In this document: positions 853 to 64,000 of the stretch, piece by piece | How the letters are laid out: the number at the start of each line of letters is the position of its first letter | Position numbering within the stretch: position 1 is the stretch's first letter | Assembly: GCA_951406725.2 (NCBI GenBank) | Contig: OX597814.1 | Span: 42,842,001-42,906,000, forward strand | DNA from: Octopus vulgaris | Lineage: Eukaryota | DNA: 64,000 bases | Direction of reading: 5' to 3' | Position numbers and translations under genes: made by a program | The notes under the pieces: generated by a model | What the model was told of the DNA's origin: nothing | Seen by the model: only the letters and a program-made list of their open reading frames with translations | The model's database searches: none

Positions 853-940
853 TTCACTTCTATCCAGTTGGCGGTAAGATTTTGCAGAACATAATCTTAC
901 AAGTAATTTAAAATATATATTATTCTCTTTTAATTTCCAG

Positions 941-1008
941 ATACATTTAGTAAGACTAGTCGAAGAACGTTTGGCAGAGATTTTAAAAGAACATTCGTGG
1001 TTAGCCAG
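941..1008 (+). CDS. Probable internal coding exon of an unidentified gene (IHLVRLVEERLAEILKEHSWLA(R))
   Basis: Polypyrimidine acceptor ttctcttttaatttccag at 923-940; open, protein-like frame; candidate GC donor CAG|GCGGGT at 1009; its phase-2 end joins in frame with the exon at 8560. Confidence 0.5.
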
Positions 1009-1798
1009 GCGGGTCTTATTATAAGATTGAGATGTCTCTATATAGTAGAAGTGTTTACCTTGGTTTCAATTAGAGATTGGTATACCAAATTCTTCTGTTT
1101 GGAACAATTATTAAATTAACATTGCAAAAATTTCTCATTATCTCTAGAAACTACATGTTGGTTTCAGGCAGTAATGATATTGCCTTTCGCTAAACATATT
1201 TGCCCGAATCAATTATAGTATTATTCTAGCATAATTCTTATTCGTTTCGTTATATTTCAATTTAAATATCATACTCGGTGTACCCACTAAATAGTTCCAA
1301 TGTACTTTAGTAACCTATAGTCATAATACATAAATATTGATAATCTGCTTTTCTTCATATGACGTATTCCTTCTTACAATCGAATGATCTTCAATTTACA
1401 TATTCATTTAGCTAATAATTAATATTTACAAACTTATTATATTACATTATAACATATACCATAATACATGTTCCCTTAAAATCTACAAGTCTTTTATTTC
1501 ATTACATGATAGTTTTATGTTTTTCTTTCTACACCCTCTTTCAATGTATTTTTTTTCGTTTTCTCACGTATTAACTGAGCAATTTTAAACATTAAATACC
1601 CCTACATATAACCCTAACAACTTATCTTTCCTAATAGCATTTATTTACAAAAAACATATAACTTTGACAAATAGTCTGCATATATATAAACATAAACAAA
1701 AGGAGAGACACGAAAGTTTTGGGAGTACGGTGCGACAGACGCCTGATGAATGTACGCATGTACGGAAAACTATAAGTGTATGTAGTTGAAACATTTAG

Positions 1799-1873
<75 letters not shown>

Positions 1874-2883
1874 AGGTTATTCAAATATACACGTGCGTAA
1901 ATGTGTAGATAAACATGTGCTAATGTGTAAACATATTAATTTGAATATGGATTTATATACTTATGAATAACGACTTCCATGATATATATTATAACGTTCA
2001 ATTTTCAAATTTTCATCTGTGCTTGATTTTAAATATGACACATATTGATAAAATCACTACTCATCTGTAGATTTCCTGAACTGTATCTATTACCAAACCA
2101 ACAGAAATAATTTTCTTAATAGTAATTTTTATCATCTAACCCACTCTTCATGTATATTATTATATAATTATTCCCTTGCATATTTAATTATAATATTTTT
2201 TTTATTTACATTGTATTATATAAATAGTTACTTTTTATCTAAATTTTATACTATATATATATATATATATTACATATATATTTTTTGTTTACTTTCATTA
2301 TATTACTGGTGACATTTTTATCCTTCTTATCTTTTTTCATTACCTTTATTATTTTGCCATTTTATTTACTTTATTTATTTTGTACTATATAACATCTTCA
2401 AAAATATTGATAACTCTGTACCTAGAAATACTTACATTATATATAGGTTCTGACTTACTAAACATATTAATATTTTCTACGCTTCCTTCACAGAAAAATG
2501 CTGACCTTAGTTCTATAAGTTCATAAGAACCCTGAAGAGGTTCTGCAGCATATAGTTGAAAATAATACATTTCTCAGAAAATAACCAAATGCTTAGAATG
2601 GCATATGCCTTGGGGCATCTCGCATCTTCTTTTTTTAGTTTTACAACTTATAATTTATTTGTATTTTTATGCTTTTAAAAATTTCAACATCTTTATATAA
2701 TAGAAATAAATCATTCATACATCCAACTTTCTCCATTTTCTTTCTTTCAATATAAATAATATGCATTTCTACAATAATCTCTAACATATTGCAGGGACTT
2801 TCTCTTTATATGGTAGTGAGTAACCATTGGAATGCTTTCGATCATATAATACCTAATGGGATCTAACTCCCTTGAATTGACTG

Positions 2884-3025
<142 letters not shown>

Positions 3026-3989
3026 TACACGATAAGAATATAGAGAGGTAATTATTAACTTATTTGTTAATTAATAAATTGACAAATGACCCTTACAGCT
3101 GTTTCATTCAAGCCCTTCAGAACATTAATTAATAAAGTTTAATATTATTTGTAAGCAAATTTCATCAGAGGTAGTTGAAGATATACAAAATAGGTGTTCA
3201 TTTCCTGCACGTTGAGTAAATGGCTGCAAAATGTTTGTGAAACAAGTGTTTCTTGGGAACAAAGAAACCAAAGAACCACAATTTTCAAAATCACTTACAT
3301 AGTACAATCATATCGATACATATTTCAATAGATAAATCACAAACACTCCTGAATACGTAACGACACAGCGACAATCTATATATGTGTCGGTTCTTGTCCC
3401 CAATACTACTACCTGAGTACCATCTTTACGTCCCCTTAATTTGCGTCAAAAAGGGTCCGGTAGAATGTGTACCAGACTCAAATAACATGTACTGTGGCTG
3501 TTTTGTTGAATTAAACCCTTCAAGATGGCTGAAATTGAATGACTGTAACATGAATAAGATAAAATATAAATATCATGTTCACAAACTTCTTTCTCATATC
3601 AGATATGCCGTTCGAGACTGTTTGAGTACATTTATTACATTAGCAATTATACATGTTTAGTTCTGGATGTTACGTAATTTTTGGTTTTGTAATTAATAGC
3701 GGTGTTCTCGCGCTTTTTACTATTTACTTAACTGCGAATATGTTTTAACATATTCTTTTGATTATAAAAGTAGTTTTTTCCCAGAATATTCAATACATCT
3801 TCCAGAAATTGCAAAGATTTGGAGATGCAAACATTTTATATATCTGTTTGGAAACTGAAAAATGATGTGCTGTCGACTTCATCATTGTCTACTGAACAAT
3901 ATTGAAAAGACGCTTTAACCGTATAGTAACTTTAATTAAATTCGTTGAACTGATGTTTTTGCCCGTGCTTTTCATATCCGTTTGAAGTG

Positions 3990-5246
3990 AATATATGTGG
4001 CCGAAGCATCAAAATTATATTTTTGAAATCGTTCTACTTTATTATTCTAGGTATATCAATTATTCTTTCTATATGTAAATTCGTCATTTCCAGAACGGAG
4101 GCCGAATGTATACCATATTCTAGGTTATGGATGTTGGATAGTCCATGCGCTAGTTTCCCTTTCGGTTGAAATTGTTGTAGGTGGTGATAGTGTTGTTTCT
4201 TGATTATTGTATACTAATTCTAAATACCTAGATTTAATCTTTGCATTTCGTGAATCATACAATCCATGATAGTAAACACTATTTTCTTTTATATTTAGTT
4301 CGCATAATTGCTATATGTATAGATTTTGCAATTTCAAACTTTATTAATTTATAATGGATCCCATTGGAAGACAACACACTGAAGCGCTTGGTTGTTTACT
4401 GTTTTTAATCCATTTAATATTCTCTTTACATCTTAGTTTTTTTTTCTTGTTTTTATCAACTTTTAGCATTTTTCTCTTTAGATCTTTATCATAATTTGGT
4501 TTGGCATATGCTTCTAATCGAAAATTCAGCAGATTACGAATCTAAAATATTGGTGAGCTTACAATAACCAAAGACTTCATGTTAATAATTAATAGGCTGC
4601 TTAACATATCATAATTAATTTTGTAATCATAGGTTTCCTCTATATTTCAAAGTAATTTTGTGGCGGATGGTTGTACCGTGCAGCAGATTATTCTAGAGGA
4701 TCACACATGTGGACTATACTGCTTCTGTTTCTATGCAATTTCTTGGTAATACAAGATTTGAGTCGTTATTCCTACTAACTGCATAACATACCACAGATTC
4801 TTTTATCTAAATAACGGATATCATTTAAGTTTAAGCTACTTTGATAGACTAACCAGACGAGACATTTAACATTTCCCTTTTAATTTCCATTCCAAAATAC
4901 TTTCTATTCCATCCAGTTCCTTCAGTTGAAAAGAAGCTGTAGCAGATGTCGATTTACCTCAGTAATTTCTTCCGCATTTGCGAAGAGGTGTGCGGTCTGG
5001 CTTTACTGTAATGTTAGACATGACCCATATAATTAGCAAGATATGGAGGCTTTTTGTGAATCTCCTGAGTTTAATTTGTCAATCTGGTCACAGTACATTG
5101 CCGAATTGATTGTCCTGTCCGAGTGAAGACGCTCGTAAAAACTTCCAGTCTCAGCAAATTGTTAGTAAAATATTATTCCAGTAAAGTCCTGCTTTCGAGG
5201 TTGATTCTTAGGGTTCGCTGTGCTATTTCTATGATGGGGCTTCACC

Positions 5247-5250
<4 letters not shown>
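3990..5250 (-). mobile_element. Very decayed Penelope-like RT relic with a degenerate hammerhead-like motif on the + strand near 5121-5152
   Basis: Patchy PLE-like translation on the minus strand; GTGAAGA…AAAACTTCCAGTC motif; ends at a (TA)n tract. Confidence 0.3.
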
Positions 5251-5315
<65 letters not shown>

Positions 5316-5470
5316 TGTATGTATGTATGTATGTATGTATGTATGTATGTATGTATGAGTGTGTGCGTGTGTGTACATATATATATATATATGTATACCT
5401 AGATTTGTATGCATACACATTCACACATTCTCTCACACGCGCACACACACACACACTTATATATATATAT

Positions 5471-5515
<45 letters not shown>

Positions 5516-5679
5516 TGTAGATATAATGACTACTGGTAACAGCTGTATTTCTCTATTACTACCACAAAGGCAAATGTGTGCATCTATCTATCCTACTGGC
5601 TCTTTCTCTCTCGCTGTCTTTCTCTCTCGCTTTCTTTCTCTCTCTCCCCCCCCCCATATATATATATATATATAAATTT

Positions 5680-6990
5680 ATGAGGAGTGGGACGCAGGTA
5701 TTCAAATCTTGTTACTTCTGACATATGTTTCAAAGAAAATATTGGTATTATTCCAGAAGGAATAAAATGGTGTAACACAATGCCATCTTCTCATCATGGA
5801 AAGAAAGAAACCCAACACATCAATTAATAGAATATGATGCGTAAATGATGAAGAAAATACTAGCAATGTTTTATTAAAAAGAGAATCGTTAGTAGATATA
5901 ACGTTGAAGGTAGTATTAGAAAGAGAAGTAGGAAAAAGAAATTAGCAGAACACTGATAGTGGAGAGATATAGAGCGATAGGTAATCCTATAACTCTTTTG
6001 TGCTACATTTGTAAGCAATTCTAGGTAATAATCTTTGGTAAGCTTGTATAGGTTTCGTGTTGTATCTGATCGAACCAGTATCCCATCCATGTTATGAATT
6101 TCCTTGGTGATATTGTGAAGATGACTCAGATGTTTATTCCTTAAGGGCGAACGCTGAAATTTAACATTTAACAGAGATCGCCTTCAAACTGTCTCAGTCC
6201 TGGGTTAGATGGAAGACTGTTTTTAGATTTAAACTAGTTTTTGAATTCAGAAGTTGGAACTCTCCCTGTTTAATATCTTTATTGTTGAAGAAAAAGGCAA
6301 GCTATCTAAAAGAGTTAATAAAGGAGTTTGTCTTACTAATGAATTGCTTAAGGACAATCTTCCTTGGGGAAATGGGTATATCCTTACGAGATGCACTTAT
6401 ATCAAATAACTCTGTATTTGGTAACTATTTTATTTGCAGGTTATATGGAAACCTGGTTAAAGTGTATATAAATTCATGTGTGTTTTTCAATGTTTACAAA
6501 TAACAGGGGAAAATAAATAAATAGTTACCAGGATAGGAAAAATTCACGCAAGTACCAAGGATGTAACAGCTTACTTATAAGGTAGAAATTCCAGGTTTTG
6601 GTGAAATGTTTTTGAATGATTTGGATAAATAAATAAATGGAATTAAGCTTACTAGCGTTCCCTTCATCATACACACAGTCATCACATTCTGTTAAAATGT
6701 ATTATTGATGTGTTTGCTTTCTGTCTTTCGCTCATGAGAAGTTTGCATTGTTTTACACCATTTTATTCCTACTGAAATAATACCAATGTTTTCTTCGAAA
6801 CATATGTCGAAAAAAAAAATTTCACCAGCGTTGAAATCTTTATATTTATCTAACAATAATATATAAAAACATTTCACCAAAAACTGGAATTTCTACCATT
6901 ATAGATAGGCTGCTACATCCTTGGTACTTGTGTGAATTTTTGCTACCATAGTAACAATTTATTTATTCTTTCCATGCTATTTGTAAACAA
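5680..6990 (-). mobile_element. Internally deleted Penelope-like element with an inverted pseudo-LTR
   Basis: Minus-strand relic FKSKNSLPSNPGLRQFEGDL…ILVRSDTTRNLYKLTKDYY matches the PLE N-terminal/DKG-type region. Inverted repeats 5715-5805/6725-6810 and 6490-6612/6866-6989; HHR-like GAAACATATGTC in both orientations. Confidence 0.8.
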
Positions 6991-7402: not shown

Positions 7403-8352
7403 TAAAAAATGGAGTTAACGCAGGTTTAAACAAGTATTTTTACTTTCGACACATGTTTCAAAAATTCCACTGATATTATTCAAAAGAATAAATGGTATAA
7501 ACAATGCAATCTTCTCTTAGGGAAAGTGAAAAAAACAGTGTATAATCAGTACTCGTAATAAAGTACGATTTTACATTGGAAGCACATCGTTAGAGTTATC
7601 TAAAAGAATTTCTATCCATTACTCAACATTTAGGGATAGAAATAAACGGAATAGTACCGGTCTCAGCAAACTGATTTGGGATTTTAAAGACCACAACGAA
7701 CAATTTCATTTAGAATGGTTGATCCTCTCAATTTAGATACCATATGACAAAGGCAAGAAATTCTGTCTTCTCTGCAATTCTGAGCTATTTTTCATTATTT
7801 TTTCTAAATATACTCTAGTAAACACGGGTATAGAACGAGCATACAGAAGAAAGCATTGGCAGAAACATACATTTAGTGCATATAAGTAGTCTCTATCATT
7901 ATATATAATTTAAACTTTAATTTCCTTTATATTTAACATTCACTATTAATATCCCTACTCTTTGTGTTAGCTACTTATGACGTTACATCATATAACGTTT
8001 TTTTAAACAATATTAATAGCGTTCTGTCTATCGCTATACAAATCCATCATTTTTTGCTAAAATGTCGTATTGACGAGTTTCACTTTCCCGAAGAGAAGAT
8101 TGCATTGTTTATACCATTTATTCTTTTGAATAGTATCAGTGGAATTTTCGAAACATGTGTCGAAAGTAAAAATACTTGTTTAAACCTGCGTTAACTCCAT
8201 TTTTCATTCATATTATTCAAAATATTCAACGTAAACACGAAGTTTCAACCTTTATAAACAAGGAGTTACAACATCTTTACTTGTGAGATTTTTGCTGCCC
8301 TGGTAACTATTTATTTATTTTTCCGTGTTAATTGTTAACAAGGTAAAAATAC
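7398..8352 (+). mobile_element. 5'-truncated Penelope-like element: inverted pLTR, GIY-YIG endonuclease 3' relic, pLTR
   Basis: 7548-7889 reads FYIGSTSLELSKRISIHYSTF…STGLSKLIWDFK…FCLLCNSE…KHW (one internal stop). Inverted repeat about 7398-7530 vs 8079-8213; flanked by (TA)n on both sides. Confidence 0.9.
8082..8167 (+). ncRNA. Hammerhead ribozyme-like motif (type I, degenerate core) in a PLE pLTR
   Basis: Helix I ACTTTC/GAAAGT; core CCGAAGA (U4 changed to C); helix II GAAGATT/AATTTTC; GAAAC-ATGT-GTC cleavage triplet. Inverted copy at 7442-7527. Confidence 0.65.
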
Positions 8353-13753: not shown

Positions 13754-14722
13754 TTGGGTTGTCAAGAAAGTAATTTTATTTTTCGCAAGTAAAATTATGA
13801 ATTTTTAATGACTTTTGCAATGTTATGATTTTTCCTATTTCCCACTTGATAGCCGGTAGGTTTAGTTTACTTTAAAGGCAAATTGTGTCTTACAGTTGTT
13901 AGTTCGGTGTCATTTTTAACATGGAGGGCAAAAGCAAACATTTTCGCTCTATTTTGCTTTTCTATGTCCGTAAAGATATATTTATAAAGTTTATCTTGTT
14001 GACTGCTCAACACAAAGCACATATCAGAGATGACTTTAGAAATTCCGTTATGGAGATTTTTCACTCAAAGACAACCAATGCTCTGTAAGTTTATGATGAC
14101 CGAATCAAAGATATAATTGAATCTGGTTGTCATATAACTGTGGCAAAGATTGCAGAGGGGGTTGAATATACCACAGACAATAATTGAAAACCATTTAAAA
14201 TGTCTCGTTAAGAAGCTCGATATTTGGGTTCCACATAAATTGAAAGTAATTCACTTATCACAATTACTCTATATTTGCGATATGCATCTGAAACGCAATT
14301 AAATCGTGCATTTTTAAAACCAATCCTCACTGGTGAAGAAAAATTCATTCTCTACAATAACATCAATCGAAAACGATCATGGTCCAAGCCTAATGAACCA
14401 GCACAGAATTCATCGAAAGCTGAAATGCATAAAAAAATACTCATACTGTCAATTTGGTGGGATTACAAAGGTGTTGTGTATTTTGATCTGCGTCCAAGGA
14501 ACGATCAATTCATATGTTTGCTACCAGTAAATAATGAAACTAGAGGAAGCAATCAACGAAAAACGGCCAGAATTGGCAAATTGTAAACGAATCGTACTCC
14601 ACCATGACAACGCTAGACCACACACGTTTTTGCTAACTTGCGAAAAATTAATGGAGCTTGGTTGGGAAGTGATGTCATATCCACCATAGATCCCTGGCTT
14701 CCCCCATCAGATTACTATTTAT
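13754..14722 (+). mobile_element. Mariner transposon fossil, 3'-truncated
   Basis: TA + TTGGGTTG TIR; frameshifted motifs WVPHKL, ILTGEEKFILYNNINRKRSW, SIWWDYKGVVYF, LHHDNARPH, PPSDYY. Confidence 0.9.
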
Positions 14723-14849
14723 TTTTAATAATGATGATGACCTGAAATCACACTTGCTTCAGTTTTTGGTTGTAAAGGAACAGAGGTCCTATGAGCGAGC
14801 GCGGAATCATAAAGTTGTCATAGAGATGGCAAAAGATCATCGAACAAAA

Positions 14850-16129: not shown

Positions 16130-17450
16130 TGATTACCTACGACGTATATTTCCTATTGAGTACTGGGGATATTTCATTTATGAGCACGTACTCCTCTATT
16201 TGTCTGAGGGTTGGGTCCTTTAGGTGCTTGTATAAAATGTGGATGACAAGTTGGCGCTGGTTGCCTCTATGTCGGTCCTTGGCATGTTGGTAGAGTATGG
16301 AGGACTGTATTTTGTCGTCATATTGTCTCAAATTTTCATTTAGTCGTTCCGTAATACTCCTAAATATTTCCCATATGTATGTCATGTCCATGTCTTTACA
16401 AGCACCTTCTATGCATTTTATGCTGTGACTACATTTCTAGTTCTACAATTAATGCCGGGGCTAATCGTATATACCATGCAGTTATTTGTGCATAAGTTAT
16501 TCTCAAAGCGGTATGTCCTATATAGTTGTGATCTGATTTCCCTGGATTTTCCGCAATCTTAATGTAGTGTTTGGTCTTCTGCAGAGATTTCCTAAATCTA
16601 CAGGCTATTTCTACATGGCTTTGCCCGCTATTTGTCGGTTTTATACTACGTGTTCACCATGTTTGCTTCGTCACAAGCTTTTTGTATTCTATTCCAGTCT
16701 TTGCTTCTCTATCTAGGACAAGTACGATTGTTTTCACTACATATAATGTTATCTAACTTCTTTCTAGCACCCCTGTATACCCGAGTCCTATCTTTCTGAT
16801 CATATCCATAGAATTGCATGCGGTGCATGTAGTTTTGCACGTTTCATCGCTTCATAGTGTTTGCATAGTAGGGACACATTTTTCATTATCCTAAGTCAGC
16901 TATCAGCATGTTAATTTTCATGTTGTGTGACAAAGCTGACTTCTTGAGAACAGATTATTTCGAAGCTATGTGTTTTCTGTAATAGCAGTGGAGAAATGGC
17001 ACTCTGTTGTTCACAGTCTCTAACCAGATTTCAGTATCAAGGACGGGGAGTCTATTGTTGGGATGACTAGTTTGTTACCTTGATACTTTGGTGGGTGGGT
17101 TTAGCTACTTGTTGGATGCTCTCTATAATGTGTTTCTCAGTTTCTACATTACCGTTACTGGAGTTGGTCTTAACTAGGATATTAATGCCGTCAACATACC
17201 AACTAAAAAGTAAAACGGTTATAGACTGTTCTGCTAATGATTGCTTAAGTTTACACATCATTTTCAACAAACACTGATAATTTTTCTGACATCACCATCT
17301 TTGACTTTACCCCATTTCCCTGCCCTGTGTCACCCGCTTAATTATTTCATCATACTTTTCTCCCATACCTTCTTTCGAGCTCTCCTTTTAGTCGTCGCTA
17401 TTTCATTTTCCTCTTTTAATGCGTTGGCTTGAAAATCATGTGGTCTAATA
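16130..17450 (-). mobile_element. Penelope-like element relic (RT plus GIY-YIG endonuclease)
   Basis: FSWYVDG (YVDD-like), HPNNRLPVLDTEIW, Cys-rich NCRTRNV, and TYIWEIFRSITERL…HAKDRH…RQIEEYVLINEISPVLNRK. Confidence 0.85.
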
Positions 17451-58571: not shown

Positions 58572-59832
58572 TTGGGTCATCCCATAATTAATGCAGTTTT
58601 TTCACTTGCAAGAAATAAAAGCCGGAAGGGGACGGGATAAACTACCTGCATCAATCAGGTAGTAATTTTACCTTGTACTTATTCTTAGTGCTAAGTTTCA
58701 AGAGTGAAGTTCGATTTCAAAAGATATATTTCCAAGTCTTCATTGGAAGTGACAAAGGTGCATATTCAACATATTTTGCTTTATGATTTCAATAAAGGCA
58801 ACAACGCAAGGGAATGTGCGAAAAATAGTAATGCAGTACATAGGGATGGGACAATAATCGTAAGGCAGACTCAACGGTAGTTCCTGAAATTCCCAGCCGA
58901 AGACCACAGCCTAGAAGACGAACCTCGTCCTGGAAGATCTGTAGAGCTCAACGAGGAAGTCCCGCAAACTCTAGTGGGAGGAAATACAAACGTAACTGTT
59001 GAGGAACTAGCAGAGAAGCTTGGATTTCGTCCTTCAACCATATATAGACACCTGCATGCTATCGAGAAAGTCAGCAAATTGGGTCGATTGATTCCTCACA
59101 AACTTTCCGATGCTAATCATACGCAGAGAGTGAATTTGTGCTTCTCTTTGCTGTAACATCTCACGAATGAACCATTTTTGGACCGAATAGTAACTGGTGA
59201 CGAGAAATGCGTTCTCTATAAATATGTCAAGCGCCGAAGACAATGTGAGAAACACCGGCACCCCAGGCTAAAAAAGGTCTTCACCCATGGGAGTTGTTGT
59301 TATCAGTTTTGTGAAATACGAAAGATTTAATCCACTTTGATATCTAAGCACAAACTAAACGATAACAGAAGAGATCTAGTGCACTACCTTGAGCGGGTTA
59401 AGTTAGTGATAGAAGAAAAACAACCATCTTTGGTCTCAAGACGAAAGGTGTTCTTCCATCAGAATTATGCTCGGCCACATACAGTGTAGATGACATTCGA
59501 AAGGCTGGCGTAGCTTGAATTGGAAACGAAACCATATCCACCATATTCGACGGACATTTCCCCCTCTGATGATAATTTATTCTGCAGTTTGCAAAATCAT
59601 TTGAAGGGAAAGAATATGTAGACGAAGCCACAGCGGTAGTGGAGGAGGGTTTTTCATCCAGGACAAGTGAATTTCGGAAGAGGGGCCTTTAAAACCTTCC
59701 AGATATATGGCAGAACATTGTAGAAAATGAAGGAGAGTATATTTAAGAATTAAAATAATTTTATTTATTTTAATTTTTAAAAAATGTAATAAGTATGAAA
59801 AAAAAAACTACATTATTTATAGGATGACCAAA
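58572..59832 (+). mobile_element. Full-length (1.26 kb) mariner fossil
   Basis: TIRs of about 30 bp, TTGGGTCATCCCATAA…/…TTATAGGATGACCAAA, with TA TSD; LEDEPRPGR, LIPHKL, RIVTGDEK, HQNYARPH, HPPYSTDISPSD. Confidence 0.95.
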
Positions 59833-59881: not shown

Positions 59882-59925
<44 letters not shown>

Positions 59926-59954
59926 CAAAATAAAAACATGATGCAAAGGATTTA

Positions 59955-60042
59955 GCGGTACATATGTTTCTGGCGTTTATTAGACGGTTTATATCAATGC
60001 ATAATTGATGTAATTTGTATGCCAATAGCCTTCTTCAGCCAC
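59955..60042 (-). ncRNA. Type I hammerhead ribozyme fold
   Basis: GTGG-CTGAAGA-A-GGC…GCC-A-GAAAC-ATAT-GTA^CCGC. Confidence 0.75.
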
Positions 60043-60314
60043 GTACAATTACTACTTCAAGGACATATATTACATTATAAGTTTGGGAAGAGACGATTTA
60101 CGTTGGGAATGCCAGTCCTCATAGTCGTGTACAACAGAGCGAGGCGCCAAAACAAAACCACATTCTACATCGAGTGAAAAACGGGATGGACGCTTTGGTT
60201 TTGTTTTGGTGCCTCACTCTGTTGTACACGACTATGAGGACTTGCATCCCCAACGTAAATCGTCTTTTTCCCAAACTTATAATGTAATACATGTCCTTGA
60301 AGTAGTAATTGTAC

Positions 60315-60402
60315 GCGGCTGAAGAAGGCTATTGACATACACATTACATCAATTATGCATTGATATAAACCGTCTAATAAAAGCCAGAAACATATGTACC
60401 GC
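60315..60402 (+). ncRNA. Type I hammerhead ribozyme fold with long helix II
   Basis: Helix I GCGG/CCGC; CTGAAGA; helix II GGCT/AGCC with inner ATCAAT/ATTGAT hairpin; GAAA; palindromic ACATATGT; GUA site, cut after 60398. Confidence 0.8.
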
Positions 60403-60503
60403 TAAATCCTTTGCATCGTGTTTTTATTTTGATAAATGTACTCTATCACCTACACTACTAAATGTCATATACAGGTGCTTACAATTATCAAGTATTCACC
60501 CTG

Positions 60504-60572
<69 letters not shown>

Positions 60573-60668
60573 GGAGTAAACACATAAATGTGAAACAAGG
60601 TGGAAAAAAGAGTACTCAAATACCAGTGGTAGAGTAATATGCTTTATTTAAAGCAGCAGAAAATTCAA

Positions 60669-60718
60669 CAAAATCTGTTACTCTGAGTTTCTCGTTGCCG
60701 TTCATCAGACAATTTTTG
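60669..60718 (-). ncRNA. Type I hammerhead ribozyme fold
   Basis: Copy of 61304-61353 with one C-to-T change in helix I that gives a U·G pair. Confidence 0.75.
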
Positions 60719-61303
60719 CTAGAATGGAACCGATATATCAATTCAATCTAGACTCTTACAAACGCTACACCTTTAAAAAAAATGAACTTGTTTGATTGGC
60801 CTTTAGAAATAACGGTCAATCTTCGAGCGATAAACAAAAAAAGCTCAAAAATATATGTATATATATATAAAAAATTATAAAATTCGAGGAAAAAACCTTA
60901 CATTGAATAAAATACATATTGACGTTAATGAAGAAAATATAATTATTGCATAAAAATTAAAACTTATTATAAATATTACACTGCAATACATATTTATATT
61001 AAAGTGTACATATATATATCAACATACACAGAAGGATGCGTGCAAACGCCATACATATACAGACGTATTAATTATATTTTCTTCATTAACGTCAATATGT
61101 ATTTTATTCAACGTAAGATTTTTTCCTCGAATTTTATAATTTTTATAATTTTTTATATATATGCATATATATTTGAGCTTTTTTTGTTTATGGCTCGAAG
61201 ATTGACCGTTATTTATAAAGGGCCAATCAAACAAGTCCATTTTTTTTAAAGGTGTAGCGTTTGTAAGAGTCTAGATTGAATTGATATATCGGTTCCATTC
61301 TAG

Positions 61304-61353
61304 CAAAAACTGTCTGATGAACGGCAACGAGAAACTCAGAGTAACAGATTTTG
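61304..61353 (+). ncRNA. Minimal type I hammerhead ribozyme fold
   Basis: CAAAAACTGT-CTGATGA-A-CG(GCAA)CG-A-GAAACTC-A-GAGTA^ACAGATTTTG; 9 of 10 bp in helix I, GNRA loop on helix II. Confidence 0.8.
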
Positions 61354-61460
61354 TTGAATTTTCTGCTGCTTTAAATAAAGTATATATATACATATATATA
61401 CGTATACAAATACCTATACAGATACATATACGCATGTGTATATGTGGATATGGGCATGTC

Positions 61461-61499
<39 letters not shown>

Positions 61500-62193
61500 A
61501 TGTGTGTAGTGTTAGGTGTAGTATACTGAAATTGAATATTGTGACAAAAGTTGCCAGAATTTGGGAAAAAATTATTTTAAATATCTTATTTTTAGCAGTT
61601 TCTTTCGTTTCTCGAACTTGTGAAATAAAATTTTGTAAATGTACAAATTGCTTCTTCATTTATATAAAACAGATGTTTTTGTAGCTTTTGTTTAGAAAAA
61701 GAGAATTTAGTTTTTTGAGCTTTTTTGTGGGGTGAAGTTACATAACAATATAGATAGAAATATAGGTAGGTAGATAGGCTGATAGATAGATAGATAGATA
61801 AATTGATAGATAGATGGAGATGGAGGAGAGTGAGAGAAGAGGTTTACCACTTCCTATTCATCATTCACTTATTCATTTATTCATTTACTATTGTATTGGG
61901 ATGGGTTTAACTAGGGTGACCTCTTAAAAAAAAAACCCAAAAAGAACAGGTAAGGTATGGTCATCACTGAAAGTTTTTTGCTTTCTTTCCCTCTTCACCA
62001 ATTTTTCTCTTTCGTTCTTTTTTCTTCTTTCTTTCTTTTTACCTCTTTGAGTTATTTTTAGAATACAAAATTCAATTTTGGAGAGAACTTTTGTGATGAA
62101 ATGTAGTTCTGATGAAAAGAACATTAGTATAATATTTAAAAGTATGAAAGAAATTAAGATAAATATATAAAATAAGGTAAAAATATATATATA

Positions 62194-62316
62194 CGAGAGG
62201 TGTATGAAAATTCTTGAGCTGCAAGAACAACAAAACATAGTAAAAGACTTCTGTTGAAGGTACACGATTTCTGACTCAAAGGACTTGATGGTTCAATACT
62301 TTTCATACACACCTCG
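62194..62316. mobile_element. 123-bp mariner-type MITE
   Basis: TA|CGAGAGGTGTATGAAAA…TTTTCATACACACCTCG|TA. Confidence 0.8.
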
Positions 62317-62356
62317 TATATAAAGGCAAAGCTAGGACATCCCAATGCTACACGCA

Positions 62357-62440
<84 letters not shown>

Positions 62441-62443
<3 letters not shown>

Positions 62444-62860
62444 CTCCTGGGGCTACAAGCTACAGTAACACCTACCCTTAGTGGTTAGCCATATTGAGAT
62501 GGCAAGTATACCTCACATTGTCGTGCAGTTACTGGTTATACCTCGTTCAGATGTTTATTATTGCTTGCAGACAGTTTTTCGAAGTCAGTGACGAAAACGA
62601 TAAAAGTATTTGCATTGGGACAACCCTTCATCGAAAACTGGTGATTGTCGTACGCCGACGACAGGTCAGTATCTAGAAACTGCAGTCCGTGCGTATCACT
62701 TAGGTTGACGAGGGAGGGATGACCTCCCTTTGCAAATACCATAAGGTCACAGAAAGTGTGCCTAAAGCCAGCTAGAGACGATGTTCTCCTGGGGGTACAC
62801 GCTAGAGTAACACCCACCATTAGTGGTTGGCCATATTGACATGGCAAGTATACCTCATAT
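62441..62860 (+). mobile_element. 342-nt unit with about 78-bp terminal direct repeats (retrozyme/pLTR-like)
   Basis: Direct repeats 62441-62518 and 62783-62860; (TA)n flanks; degenerate HHR-like motif at 62700-62765. Confidence 0.65.
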
Positions 62861-62861
62861 G

Positions 62862-62904
<43 letters not shown>

Positions 62905-62907
<3 letters not shown>

Positions 62908-63112
62908 GGTCCCGGGTTGATTCGGGGTTAACCACAGTAAATAAGGTACTCAATACATAGCAGAGTAAAAATAATTTATTATATAGAAGGAGCTTCTACA
63001 GGACTAGAACCGTTTCATTCAAGAGAAATCTTCAGAAATCTTCAGAGCTTCCTGAAGATTTCTCTTGAATGAAACAGTTCTAGTCCTGTAGAAGCTCCTT
63101 CTATATAATAAA
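62905..63112. mobile_element. Palindromic mini-element with a hammerhead
   Basis: 61-bp arms 62975-63035 and 63052-63112 with a single mismatch; (TA)n flanks. Confidence 0.85.
63045..63097 (+). ncRNA. Type I hammerhead ribozyme fold
   Basis: GAGCTTC-CTGAAGA-T-TTC(TCTT)GAA-T-GAAACAG(TTCTAGTC)CTGTA^GAAGCTC; 7-bp helix I, 4-bp helix III. Confidence 0.82.
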
Positions 63113-63244
63113 ATATATATATATATATATATATATAGCTAAATATATGTAGAGATTAGCCACATTTCGAATAAAAAATGCAAATTCTCTACTTTACCTT
63201 CAAACATTCAATTTTGGAGAGAATCCCTGGATGAAGTGTGTGTG

Positions 63245-63294
<50 letters not shown>

Positions 63295-63378
63295 TGTGTG
63301 TGCATTATAGAACATAACTATAACACAAACTAGAAAAACACACACAGCTCAGAACATCTCAATGCCATACATATATAC

Positions 63379-63435
<57 letters not shown>

Positions 63436-63436
<1 letters not shown>

Positions 63437-63721
63437 TTTATTTAAAGAGGCAGAAAATTCAACAAAATCTGTTACTCTGAGTTTCTCGTTGCCGTTCATC
63501 AGACAGTTTTTGCTAGAATGGAACCGATATATCAATTCAATCCAGACCCTTACAAACGCTACACCTTTAAAAAAATGGACTTGTTTGATTGGCCCTTTAT
63601 AAATAACGGTTAATCTTCGAGCGATAAACAAAAAAATGAGCTCAAAAATAATGTATATATATATAAAGAAAAATTATAAAAATTATAAATTTCGAGGAAA
63701 AAACCTTACGTTGAATAAAAT
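63436..63721 (-). mobile_element. Third copy of the 60642-60945 arm
   Basis: High identity to 60642-60915; starts right after a (TA)n tract. Confidence 0.9.
63463..63512 (-). ncRNA. Type I hammerhead ribozyme fold
   Basis: Identical to 61304-61353. Confidence 0.8.
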
Positions 63722-64000
63722 AATAATACCTTGCGTACTGGATTGGATAGAAAAAGAAAAAAGTGTATGGCTAAGGATCTTAACAATAAAAATTTTGAAA
63801 TCAGCTGCCAAACCTCATTCTAATCCTATTATCATTAGTGATGGCAAAAATAAGAATATCAGTACGAATAATAGTAAAAATATTATACACGGAAAATGCA
63901 TGCTTATATTGGTATCTGTATACACAATTTTATCGGTTTCTAAATATTCTTTCTTTTTATATATATTATATATTAACTGATGAGTATAAATTAATCTTTA

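What the first reader, a model, noticed from the sequence alone, without database searches (positions are those of the whole stretch)
59900..63730. Ribozyme hotspot: six complete-core hammerheads from three families share a GUA site and a mismatched 10.1-11.1 pair
Seen: within about 3.6 kb, three families with different helix sequences all show CUGANGA…GAAA, a GUA cleavage triplet, and a non-Watson-Crick pair closing helix II (A·A, A·A, U·U) where canonical HHRs have G-C. All are short, non-coding, (TA)n-embedded and arranged head-to-head. Inference: a lineage-specific HHR variant used by a system of miniature PLE-dependent elements; the mismatch and tiny helix III may make cleavage depend on dimerisation or protein.
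Basis: partly seen in the sequence, partly recalled or inferred. Interest (0 to 1): 0.75.

Follow-up and report, generated by a model that had tools for sequence, protein, structure and literature searches.

The report
Loosened hammerheads in Hydra-clade Penelope retroelements
These are hammerhead RNA motifs at the broken-off ends of known kinds of animal jumping elements that pile up in TA repeats; their odd unpaired base is a loosened position partly on record elsewhere, and it likely helps keep self-cutting weak.

Summary
The three families are not miniature elements. They are truncated, inverted ends of three protein-coding Hydra-clade Penelope-like retrotransposons with 2,400-6,200 motif copies each. 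Only the missed eighth is miniature, a ~345-nt retrozyme. The 10.1-11.1 mismatch is not decay, but it is neither lineage-specific nor one conserved pair. U·U is published and active and stands in 14 of 25 tabulated Hydra families. In family B, position 11.1 takes all four bases, including a Watson-Crick A-U. Best reading: weak, dimer-dependent, likely protein-assisted ribozymes, with most RNA left uncut as template. Not found in my searches: the A·A, A·C, A·G and C·A states, and U4C cores in five families, including the youngest active one. The scan earlier noted a C·C case in another genome. Cleavage is untested.

The parts
59917..60507 (.). Family A insertion: inverted pair of 5'-truncated Hydra-clade PLE ends; short end on the left, tailed end on the right
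   Evidence: arms 59917-60440 91% identical; 74-77% to the full family A unit in L031; tails
59955..60042 (-). Family A hammerhead (C3 60038, H17 59959; A·A over G-C; 61-nt helix II region; helix III an 8-nt palindrome; GUA)
60315..60402 (+). Family A hammerhead (C3 60319, H17 60398; A·A over G-C; GUA)
60507..60570 (.). (TA)n array between the A and B insertions (target site)
60570..61380 (.). Family B insertion: inverted pair of truncated Hydra-clade PLE ends; tailed end on the left (108 nt past the predicted cut), short end on the right (37 nt)
   Evidence: 88-96% to the coding unit in L011
60675..60712 (-). Family B hammerhead (C3 60708, H17 60679; A·A over a 2-bp helix II with a GNRA loop; GUA)
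61310..61347 (+). Family B hammerhead (C3 61314, H17 61343)
62441..62862 (+).
   Evidence: direct repeat 62441/62783; period 351 in L118, inverted and tailed copies, no ORF inside the unit
62649..62693 (+). Family D' hammerhead (C3 62655, H17 62687; U4C core; C·A at 10.1/11.1; helix III an 8-nt palindrome; GUC)
62905..63113 (.). Family C insertion: very short inverted pair of Hydra-clade PLE ends; tailed end on the left
   Evidence: 96-97% to the ORF-bearing copy in L046
62990..63035 (-). Family C hammerhead core with the 5' strand of helix I lost at the inversion junction (C3 63035, H17 62997; U·U)
63045..63097 (+). Family C hammerhead (C3 63052, H17 63090; U·U over a 3-bp helix II; 7-bp helix I; GUA)
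63436..63722 (-). Second family B insertion, single truncated end, short (untailed) type
63469..63506 (-). Family B hammerhead (C3 63502, H17 63473; A·A; GUA)

Best explanation
The cluster is the truncated ends of three protein-coding Hydra-clade Penelope-like retrotransposon families plus one small retrozyme, inserted side by side in (TA)n, and their hammerheads have a loosened, mostly unpaired base of helix II that likely leaves them weak cutters, predicted to work only as dimers and likely with help from the element's protein. Shown: family identity; the hammerhead sits in the pseudo-LTR (family B: 3,352 nt from one predicted cut to the next, start codon 175 nt after the cut); insertions end at two fixed points 22-38 and 93-109 nt beyond the predicted cut; 11.1 varies freely among amplified subfamilies while the rest of the core, the helices and the helix III palindrome are kept. 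Inferred: reverse transcription starts in the tail downstream of the ribozyme and reads through an intact cleavage site, so uncut RNA is the usual template; two same-sense hammerheads in a tandem transcript pair through helix III and occasionally release a unit-length RNA; selection tolerates changes that slow cutting (unpaired 10.1/11.1, U4C, GUA or GUU sites) but not loss of the fold. The window's inverted pairs are predicted to be inactive, because a read-through transcript would fold the arms into a long duplex.
For: ORFs of 727 aa (B), 640 + 463 aa pieces (A) and pieces of C next to the hammerheads; Hydra motifs DKT, CxCx5C, CxxC..E and CxH in all three, RWK in B and RWA in A, with motif-by-motif likeness to Hydra-1_Obim by eye; proteins only 33-48% identical to each other. 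State counts. In contigs of four public runs, the only positions of the 34-nt family B motif that vary at 3% or more are U4, 11.1 and, weakly, H17, against 10 variable positions in the 32 nt at L012:6113-6144. Across 22 family or subfamily representatives 15.2-16.2 is always C-G and helix III is near-palindromic, while 10.1/11.1 takes at least nine states. A compensatory C-G to U-A change in helix II of family A fixes the register. Dimer gain and competing folds. One-sided tails. No peak of copies starting at the cut: 271 against 287 in a control window 3 nt upstream. Precedent: low activity and dimer need, protein-assisted cleavage with uncut RNA as template, active U·U and U4C variants. Clustering: 7 cross-family neighbours within 2 kb against 0.99 expected, p about 0.0005.
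Against: No cleavage or RNA-end data for any of these motifs. Activity precedent covers U·U only; Perreault 2011 says U·U is the best tolerated mispair, so A·A, A·C, A·G or C·A may be nearly dead. Nearest-neighbour energies omit core tertiary contacts, and the double-hammerhead fold is the predicted minimum only for window A+ (P 0.67; otherwise at most 0.05). The anatomy fits a re-ligated circular template equally well. The truncation test mixes point mutations with true truncations (11 of 30 inspected were point changes). Families were mostly found with core-containing patterns, which inflates apparent core conservation. Protein assistance is shown only for a Poseidon-clade element. Pfam gave no RT or GIY-YIG hit.
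Confidence: 0.6

Rival explanations
1. Circle model: the hammerheads cut tandem transcripts efficiently as dimers; the unit-length RNA is ligated to a circle that holds one inactive monomeric hammerhead, and reverse transcription around the circle makes the pseudo-LTRs. The loosened pair only suppresses monomer leak.
For: Two same-sense hammerheads one unit apart; dimer gain; proposed for PLEs and shown for animal retrozymes, including a U·U one; D' is a circularly permuted ~345-nt unit, for which this model is the likelier one.
Against: In the one reconstituted PLE, catalytic mutants insert normally and no RNA reads end at the cut; the youngest family here carries U4C and a GUU site.
Confidence: 0.18
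2. Vestigial catalysis: the fold is kept as a protein-binding or RT-positioning signal next to the tail and no longer needs to cut.
For: U4C in five families (B, D', J, L171, L013); family J's near-identical young copies with intact 717-aa ORFs carry U4C while its diverged copies mostly carry U4; 11.1 is free; no footprint at the cut; cleavage is dispensable in vitro.
Against: Catalytic G8 and G12, the C3-G8 and A15.1-U16.1 pairs, a cleavable triplet and the helix III palindrome persist in families with unrelated helices; the changes seen are ones reported to slow, not abolish, cutting.
Confidence: 0.17
3. One reading: a lineage-specific hammerhead variant whose non-Watson-Crick 10.1-11.1 pair is a required feature of a system of miniature PLE-dependent elements.
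For: Each window family keeps its mismatch in thousands of copies; A10.1 is constant in every family B match listed; one true miniature element with C·A is present.
Against: A, B and C are autonomous; U·U is widespread and published; an A-U subfamily state amplified in family B (23 of 100 listed non-A copies); G-C families coexist.
Confidence: 0.05

Closest known systems
Hydra clade of C-terminal EN+ Penelope-like elements and their hammerheads (Craig et al. 2021, PMC8557442; e.g. Hydra-1_Obim, Hydra-2_Amil, Penelope-1_HM)
   Same: DKT, CxCx5C, CxxC and CxH motifs, (TA)n targeting, inverted 5' copies, one-sided tail, palindromic helix III of the same types; non-Watson-Crick 10.1/11.1 in 15 of 25 tabulated families (14 U·U, 1 U·C) plus 2 G·U; GUA in 11 of 25. 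Hydra-2_Amil has the same helix I and the same helix III stem as family B.
   Different: No A·A, A·C, A·G or C·A and no U4C in the Hydra rows; the table is headed 'canonical' and the passages read do not discuss the mismatch; tails here are ~71 nt against 30-40 bp; units of 3.4-4.7 kb against generally under 3 kb; none of A, B or C has the Hydra-1_Obim hammerhead.
Minimal PLE hammerheads (Cervera and de la Peña 2014, PMC4209133)
   Same: Type I motifs in pseudo-LTRs, mostly on truncated copies, some as close pairs on opposite strands; palindromic helix III; low activity, dimer-dependent; extra nucleotide after A9.
   Different: Their consensus keeps G10.1-C11.1 directly before GAAA. Here an extra nucleotide can also stand before G12 (alone in family J, on both sides in A, B, C, D). 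Their supplement already shows the Hydra U·U row and one row with an extra A before GAAA.
Natural U10.1-U11.1 and U4C hammerheads (Perreault et al. 2011, PMC3088659; axolotl HHR_Amex2 in PMC7229834)
   Same: Same mismatch position as family C and same U4C change; reported active, Amex2 22% in 1 h as a monomer and better as a dimer.
   Different: Rare there; here purine-containing mismatches and U4C are carried by thousands of copies of amplifying elements.
Poseidon PLE of Anolis carolinensis, PAc (Frangieh et al. 2024, PMC11167929)
   Same: Two fixed 3' ends defining a tail downstream of the hammerhead; AT-rich targets.
   Different: Different PLE clade; there the ORF starts inside the hammerhead, here 175-197 nt after the cut; protein assistance is shown there and untested here.
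Metazoan non-LTR retrozymes (Cervera and de la Peña 2020, PMC7229834; Li et al. 2026, bioRxiv 10.64898/2026.07.22.740005)
   Same: Family D': ~345-nt non-coding tandem unit with one type I hammerhead.
   Different: D' shows PLE-type inverted and tailed insertions in (TA)n, C·A at 10.1/11.1, and U4C in 47 of 100 listed copies; mostly 1-2 units in the loci seen, not long arrays.

Membership tests
Type I hammerhead ribozyme | CUGANGA and GAAA cores, A15.1-U16.1 and an NUH site | tested here: met
   A, B, C meet it; D' has U4C, a known natural variant
Type I hammerhead ribozyme | Three helices with covariation, open at helix I | tested here: met
   helix I 4-7 bp, II 2-4+ bp and III differ between families yet pair; compensatory change in family A
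Type I hammerhead ribozyme | Watson-Crick 10.1-11.1 directly flanking A9 and G12 (consensus, not absolute) | tested here: not met
   A·A, A·C, U·U, C·A; in A and D the first pair under the 1x1 loop is G-C; U·U exceptions are published
Type I hammerhead ribozyme | Site-specific self-cleavage leaving 5'-OH and 2',3'-cyclic phosphate | not testable with these tools
   needs an assay or RNA-end data
Type I hammerhead ribozyme | Loop 1 - loop 2 tertiary contact of fast natural hammerheads | not tested
   not analysed; PLE hammerheads are reported to lack it
EN+ Penelope-like element | Single ORF with RT and C-terminal GIY-YIG-type endonuclease | tested here: met
   727-aa ORF with YRDD and a C-terminal endonuclease-like region, motif-level likeness to published Hydra ORFs; Pfam found no RT or EN family
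EN+ Penelope-like element | Pseudo-LTR tandem or inverted layout with a one-sided tail | tested here: met
Hydra clade | DKT in place of DKG; CxCx5C linker; CxxC and CxH around conserved E and N | tested here: met
   all three families
Hydra clade | N-terminal RWK motif | tested here: inconclusive
   RWK in B, RWA in A; the N-terminus of C was not recovered
Hydra clade | Insertion into (TA)n | tested here: met
Hydra clade | Placement in the clade by RT phylogeny; absence of IFD and CCHH | not tested
   the published reference sequences were readable only as supplement text, so no tree was built
Non-LTR retrozyme (family D') | Non-coding ~200-400 nt head-to-tail unit with one type I hammerhead | tested here: met
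   period 351 in L118, 341 in the window; no PLE ORF inside the unit
Non-LTR retrozyme (family D') | Expressed linear and circular monomer RNAs | not testable with these tools
   needs northern or circRNA data
Miniature non-autonomous element (families A, B, C) | No coding parent sharing the same ends | tested here: not met
   the same ends flank RT-EN ORFs

The most novel reading that the evidence does not exclude
Hydra-clade elements of this genome evolve their hammerhead as a throttle. Independent lineages have repeatedly damped it (an unpaired or doubly bulged base of helix II in every purine-containing combination, U4C in at least five families, a core-sequestering alternative fold) while keeping the catalytic guanines and the dimer palindrome, and the damped versions are the ones now amplifying. 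The result is a protein- and dimer-gated switch between cutting and copying, with a natural allelic series of thousands of copies per allele that can settle what PLE hammerheads are for.
Probability: 0.3. Interest if true: 0.62.

Novelty: new variant of a known kind. Interest (0 to 1): 0.38.

Why it matters
The role of hammerheads in Penelope-like elements is still called unclear. This genome holds near-isogenic natural alleles that amplified to thousands of copies (family B: U4/A·A against U4C with A·G, A·U or A·C; family J: U4 against U4C), so one can ask directly whether cutting speed helps or hurts transposition. It also shows that descriptors requiring CUGA and a paired 10.1-11.1 would miss these large hammerhead families, and D' gives structural support for retrozymes being moved by PLE machinery. 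The element class, the dimer logic and the U·U mismatch are already known, which caps the surprise.

Tried and rejected
Rfam scan of the window: none of the 150 best of 216 matches shown was a hammerhead (mostly repeat-driven miRNA-family noise); 66 lower ones were not shown. Pfam found no RT or GIY-YIG family in 5 of 5 proteins. Sequencing runs: no RNA holder listed; both read-laying runs used contigs, which cannot show RNA ends or expression, and served only to list sequence variants. Lünse et al. (PMC5785218) was not held; it may already show such variants. Copies beginning at the predicted cut: no excess; crude test. Age order of family B subfamilies: divergences 0.008-0.028 on 4-14 copies each, not informative. 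Linking the canonical G-C families F, G, H and the mismatch families E, I, K to ORFs: no parent ORF found beside them in 32 loci, so whether the mismatch tracks the Hydra clade within this genome is open. Rejected: reading family J as G·U (corrected: G-C plus one extra base); a shifted register that restores a Watson-Crick helix in A, B or C; a U4-to-downstream-base covariation in family B (one event by descent, no fitting register); Naiad identity (the endonuclease is C-terminal). Other CUGANGA...GAAA strings in the window fail the helix tests. One search crashed and was rewritten.
Full report
OBSERVATION. A scan demanding CUGANGA, GAAA, helices I-III and an NUH site finds six cores in the 64-kb window, all in 59955-63506, all with GUA and a non-Watson-Crick 10.1/11.1: family A (-60038, +60319; A·A), family B (-60708, +61314, -63502; A·A), family C (+63052; U·U). 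100 dinucleotide shuffles give 0.2 loose and 0.01 strict cores per window. A seventh core (C, -63035) has lost the 5' strand of helix I at the inversion junction.

WHAT THE FAMILIES ARE. The window lies in a 2.8-Gb animal genome; I call it octopus-like from protein likeness to Hydra-1_Obim and from earlier scan notes. Exact motif counts are 3,875 for B, 6,238 for C and 2,448 for A, with 0 for the reversed control patterns. Loci with two hammerheads a few kb apart contain ORFs: an intact 727-aa RT-endonuclease ORF for B (L011, L012; L019), frameshifted or partial ORFs for A (L031-L036) and C (L046, L047). These loci were picked for having two motifs some kb apart, so they show that coding parents exist, not how common they are. 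The proteins are 33-48% identical and carry DKT, CxCx5C, CxxC..E and CxH; B has RWK, A has RWA, and C's N-terminus was not recovered. These are the diagnostics of the Hydra clade, which inserts into (TA)n. No tree was built, and Pfam recognised none of the five proteins. The window copies match the ends of these elements at 74-97%, so they are 5'-truncated, inverted PLE ends, the usual layout. In B the unit is 3,352 nt from cut to cut with the start codon 175 nt after the cut; in A it is 4,684 nt with the start about 197 nt after. Insertions end at two fixed distances past the predicted cut: 37/108 nt (B), about 38/109 (A), about 22/93 (C), a one-sided tail of about 71 nt. The fourth family, D' (379 copies), is a 341-355 nt non-coding head-to-tail unit with PLE-like inverted and tailed insertions: a non-LTR retrozyme, and the only miniature element here.

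THE HOTSPOT. From the listed positions on the first 33.9 Mb of contig 1 (A, B and C matches; 152 insertion clusters), density is 4.5 per Mb, or 0.017 expected in 3.8 kb, and cross-family neighbours within 2 kb number 7 against 0.99 in 2,000 randomisations (p about 0.0005). The cluster is unusual in size but fits a shared (TA)n target (inference).

THE MISMATCH. It is not decay. In B with the canonical core, 11.1 is not A in only 93 of 3,875 (72 G, 18 U, 3 C by hand count). In C, 11.1 is not U in 10 of 6,238, and 10.1 is U in all of the first 100 listed. In A, 11.1 is C in 84, A in 15 and U in 1 of the first 100; 10.1 was A in every copy printed and showed no variant at 3% in contigs of three runs; a C-G to U-A compensatory change fixes the register. 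But it is not one conserved pair. B has 1,896 more copies with a U4C core, A11.1 in only 2 of the first 100; among 1,970 copies with non-A 11.1, the first 100 are 63 G, 23 U (a Watson-Crick A-U) and 14 C, 93 of them U4C, all with A10.1. Representatives of 22 families or subfamilies show A·A, A·C, A·G, A-U, U·U, C·A, C·C, G·U and G-C; a looser census found 2,621 further matches against 175 control, with canonical and mismatch families side by side. A simpler description: an extra base may stand after A9 (known for PLE hammerheads), before G12 (family J) or on both sides; in A and D the first pair under that 1x1 loop is the canonical G-C. In contigs of four runs laid on family B, the only positions of the motif varying at 3% or more are U4, 11.1 and weakly H17 (contig depths are not copy numbers).

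WHAT IS IN PRINT. Perreault 2011 (passages and section 8 read) reports a natural U10.1-U11.1 hammerhead, cites U·U as the best tolerated mispair, and notes a viable U4C viroid variant. Cervera 2020 (passages and section 15) reports axolotl HHR_Amex2 with U·U, 22% cleavage in 1 h as a monomer and more as a dimer. Craig 2021 (abstract, passages, section 11, supplement parts 1-2 of 59 and searched passages) tabulates 25 Hydra families; by my count 14 have U·U, 1 U·C, 2 G·U, 7 G-C and 1 an extra G with A-U; sites are 11 GUA, 10 GUU, 4 GUC; a non-Hydra row has C·A. The passages I read do not discuss this. Cervera 2014 (parts 1-2 of 4; supplement file 2, parts 1-2 of 3; file 1 not searchable) shows the Hydra U·U row and one of 56 rows with an extra A before GAAA that the text extraction cannot assign. 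Frangieh 2024 (parts 1-2 of 4) shows a PLE hammerhead that cuts only with protein, with uncut RNA as the insertion template and two RT starts defining the tail. Li 2026 (part 1 of 5 and passages) argues that retrozymes derive from PLEs. Weinberg 2019 was seen as passages. Lünse et al. was not held, and Ruffner 1990 is known only through citation. Seven searches listed no paper on purine-containing 10.1/11.1 mismatches or U4C in PLE hammerheads; unread papers and figure panels may hold them.

MECHANISM. Helix III is palindromic (8 of 8 positions in A and D', 8 of 9 in B, 12 of 16 in C). A double hammerhead is 5.7-14 kcal/mol more stable than two monomers in the seven window copies with an intact helix I, but competing folds usually win; in B the core strand pairs with the helix III loop, 4.7 kcal/mol below the hammerhead fold. 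These energies omit tertiary contacts. Every intact end runs past the predicted cut, so the template held an intact site, either uncut or re-ligated (inference). Copies do not start preferentially at the cut (271 against 287; of 30 inspected, 11 were point changes and the other 19 truncations or indels). Family J, met by chance, is the youngest element seen: 150 of 150 scored hits are 97-100% identical over the queried part, many in long open frames up to 717 aa; it has 5,339 motif copies, a GUU site and U4C in 70 of the first 100, the near-identical majority being U4C and the diverged copies mostly U4 (hand count). U4C also occurs in B, D' (47 of 100) and two further families. The window's inverted pairs are predicted dead: the two hammerheads of a pair lie on opposite strands, and the arms would fold back on each other.

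VERDICT. Real motifs in a known element class. The U·U state and the dimer logic are published. The free 11.1 position, the purine mismatches and recurrent U4C in amplifying lineages are an extension that I did not find described, and they give a ready allelic series. An earlier scan note reported a C·C state in Hydra hammerheads of another genome; I did not check it. New variant of a known kind; interest 0.38.

Noticed in passing
window 62441-62862; L117-L121, L128-L136: Non-LTR retrozyme family D' (341-355 nt unit, 379 motif copies) inserted with PLE-type inversions and a one-sided tail of about 46 nt in (TA)n; a related family D has a 360-nt period (L065) and 264 motif copies.
   Followed up: yes
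L013:6159, L170, L173-L192: Family J: very young, abundant Hydra-type PLE (717-aa ORF with RWK, DKT and a YKDD RT motif) whose hammerhead has U4C, G-C plus one extra base before G12, and a GUU site; diverged copies mostly have U4.
   Followed up: partly
window 60571-60642 and 62905-62975; L012, L046: Tails of B and C begin with a similar stem (ACUC...GAGUA with a short U bulge on the 3' side), also seen by eye in published Hydra-2_Amil; family A's tail does not fold this way clearly. Possible RT-start signal.
   Followed up: partly
all three families: One-sided tails are about 71 nt in A, B and C, against 30-40 bp reported for other PLEs.
   Followed up: partly
L098 (G000:C1:10074300-10076800): Two inverted family B ends 1.4 kb apart come from different subfamilies (U4C/A-U and U4/A·A); either two insertions or a two-template insertion.
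   Followed up: no
L171:3138, L013:71, L169:995, L029:2624, L051-L082: Further hammerhead families with G-C, A·C, U·U or G·U at the base of helix II, two of them with U4C; parents mostly not identified.
   Followed up: partly
published Hydra table and family J: C11.1-G12 is a CpG, and U stands just before G12 in 17 of 25 published Hydra rows and in young family J; deamination may be the route to these states (inference).
   Followed up: no
window 58695-59603 and 14347-14724: Decayed mariner-type transposase remnants (32-49% to mariner-like ORFs of L001, which I named from their look).
   Followed up: partly
window 62191-62320: About 130-bp element with terminal inverted repeats between TA dinucleotides, MITE-like.
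   Followed up: no
window 874-1044, 5941-6424, 7539-7823, 16149-16611: Fragments of other PLE ORFs elsewhere in the window; a hammerhead-like string at +1743 with a GUG site, probably decayed; a family C-like motif piece near 3111 (minus strand).
   Followed up: no
L038, L039: 8.1-kb tandem repeats holding family A, C and J ends and a gag-like ORF fragment.
   Followed up: no
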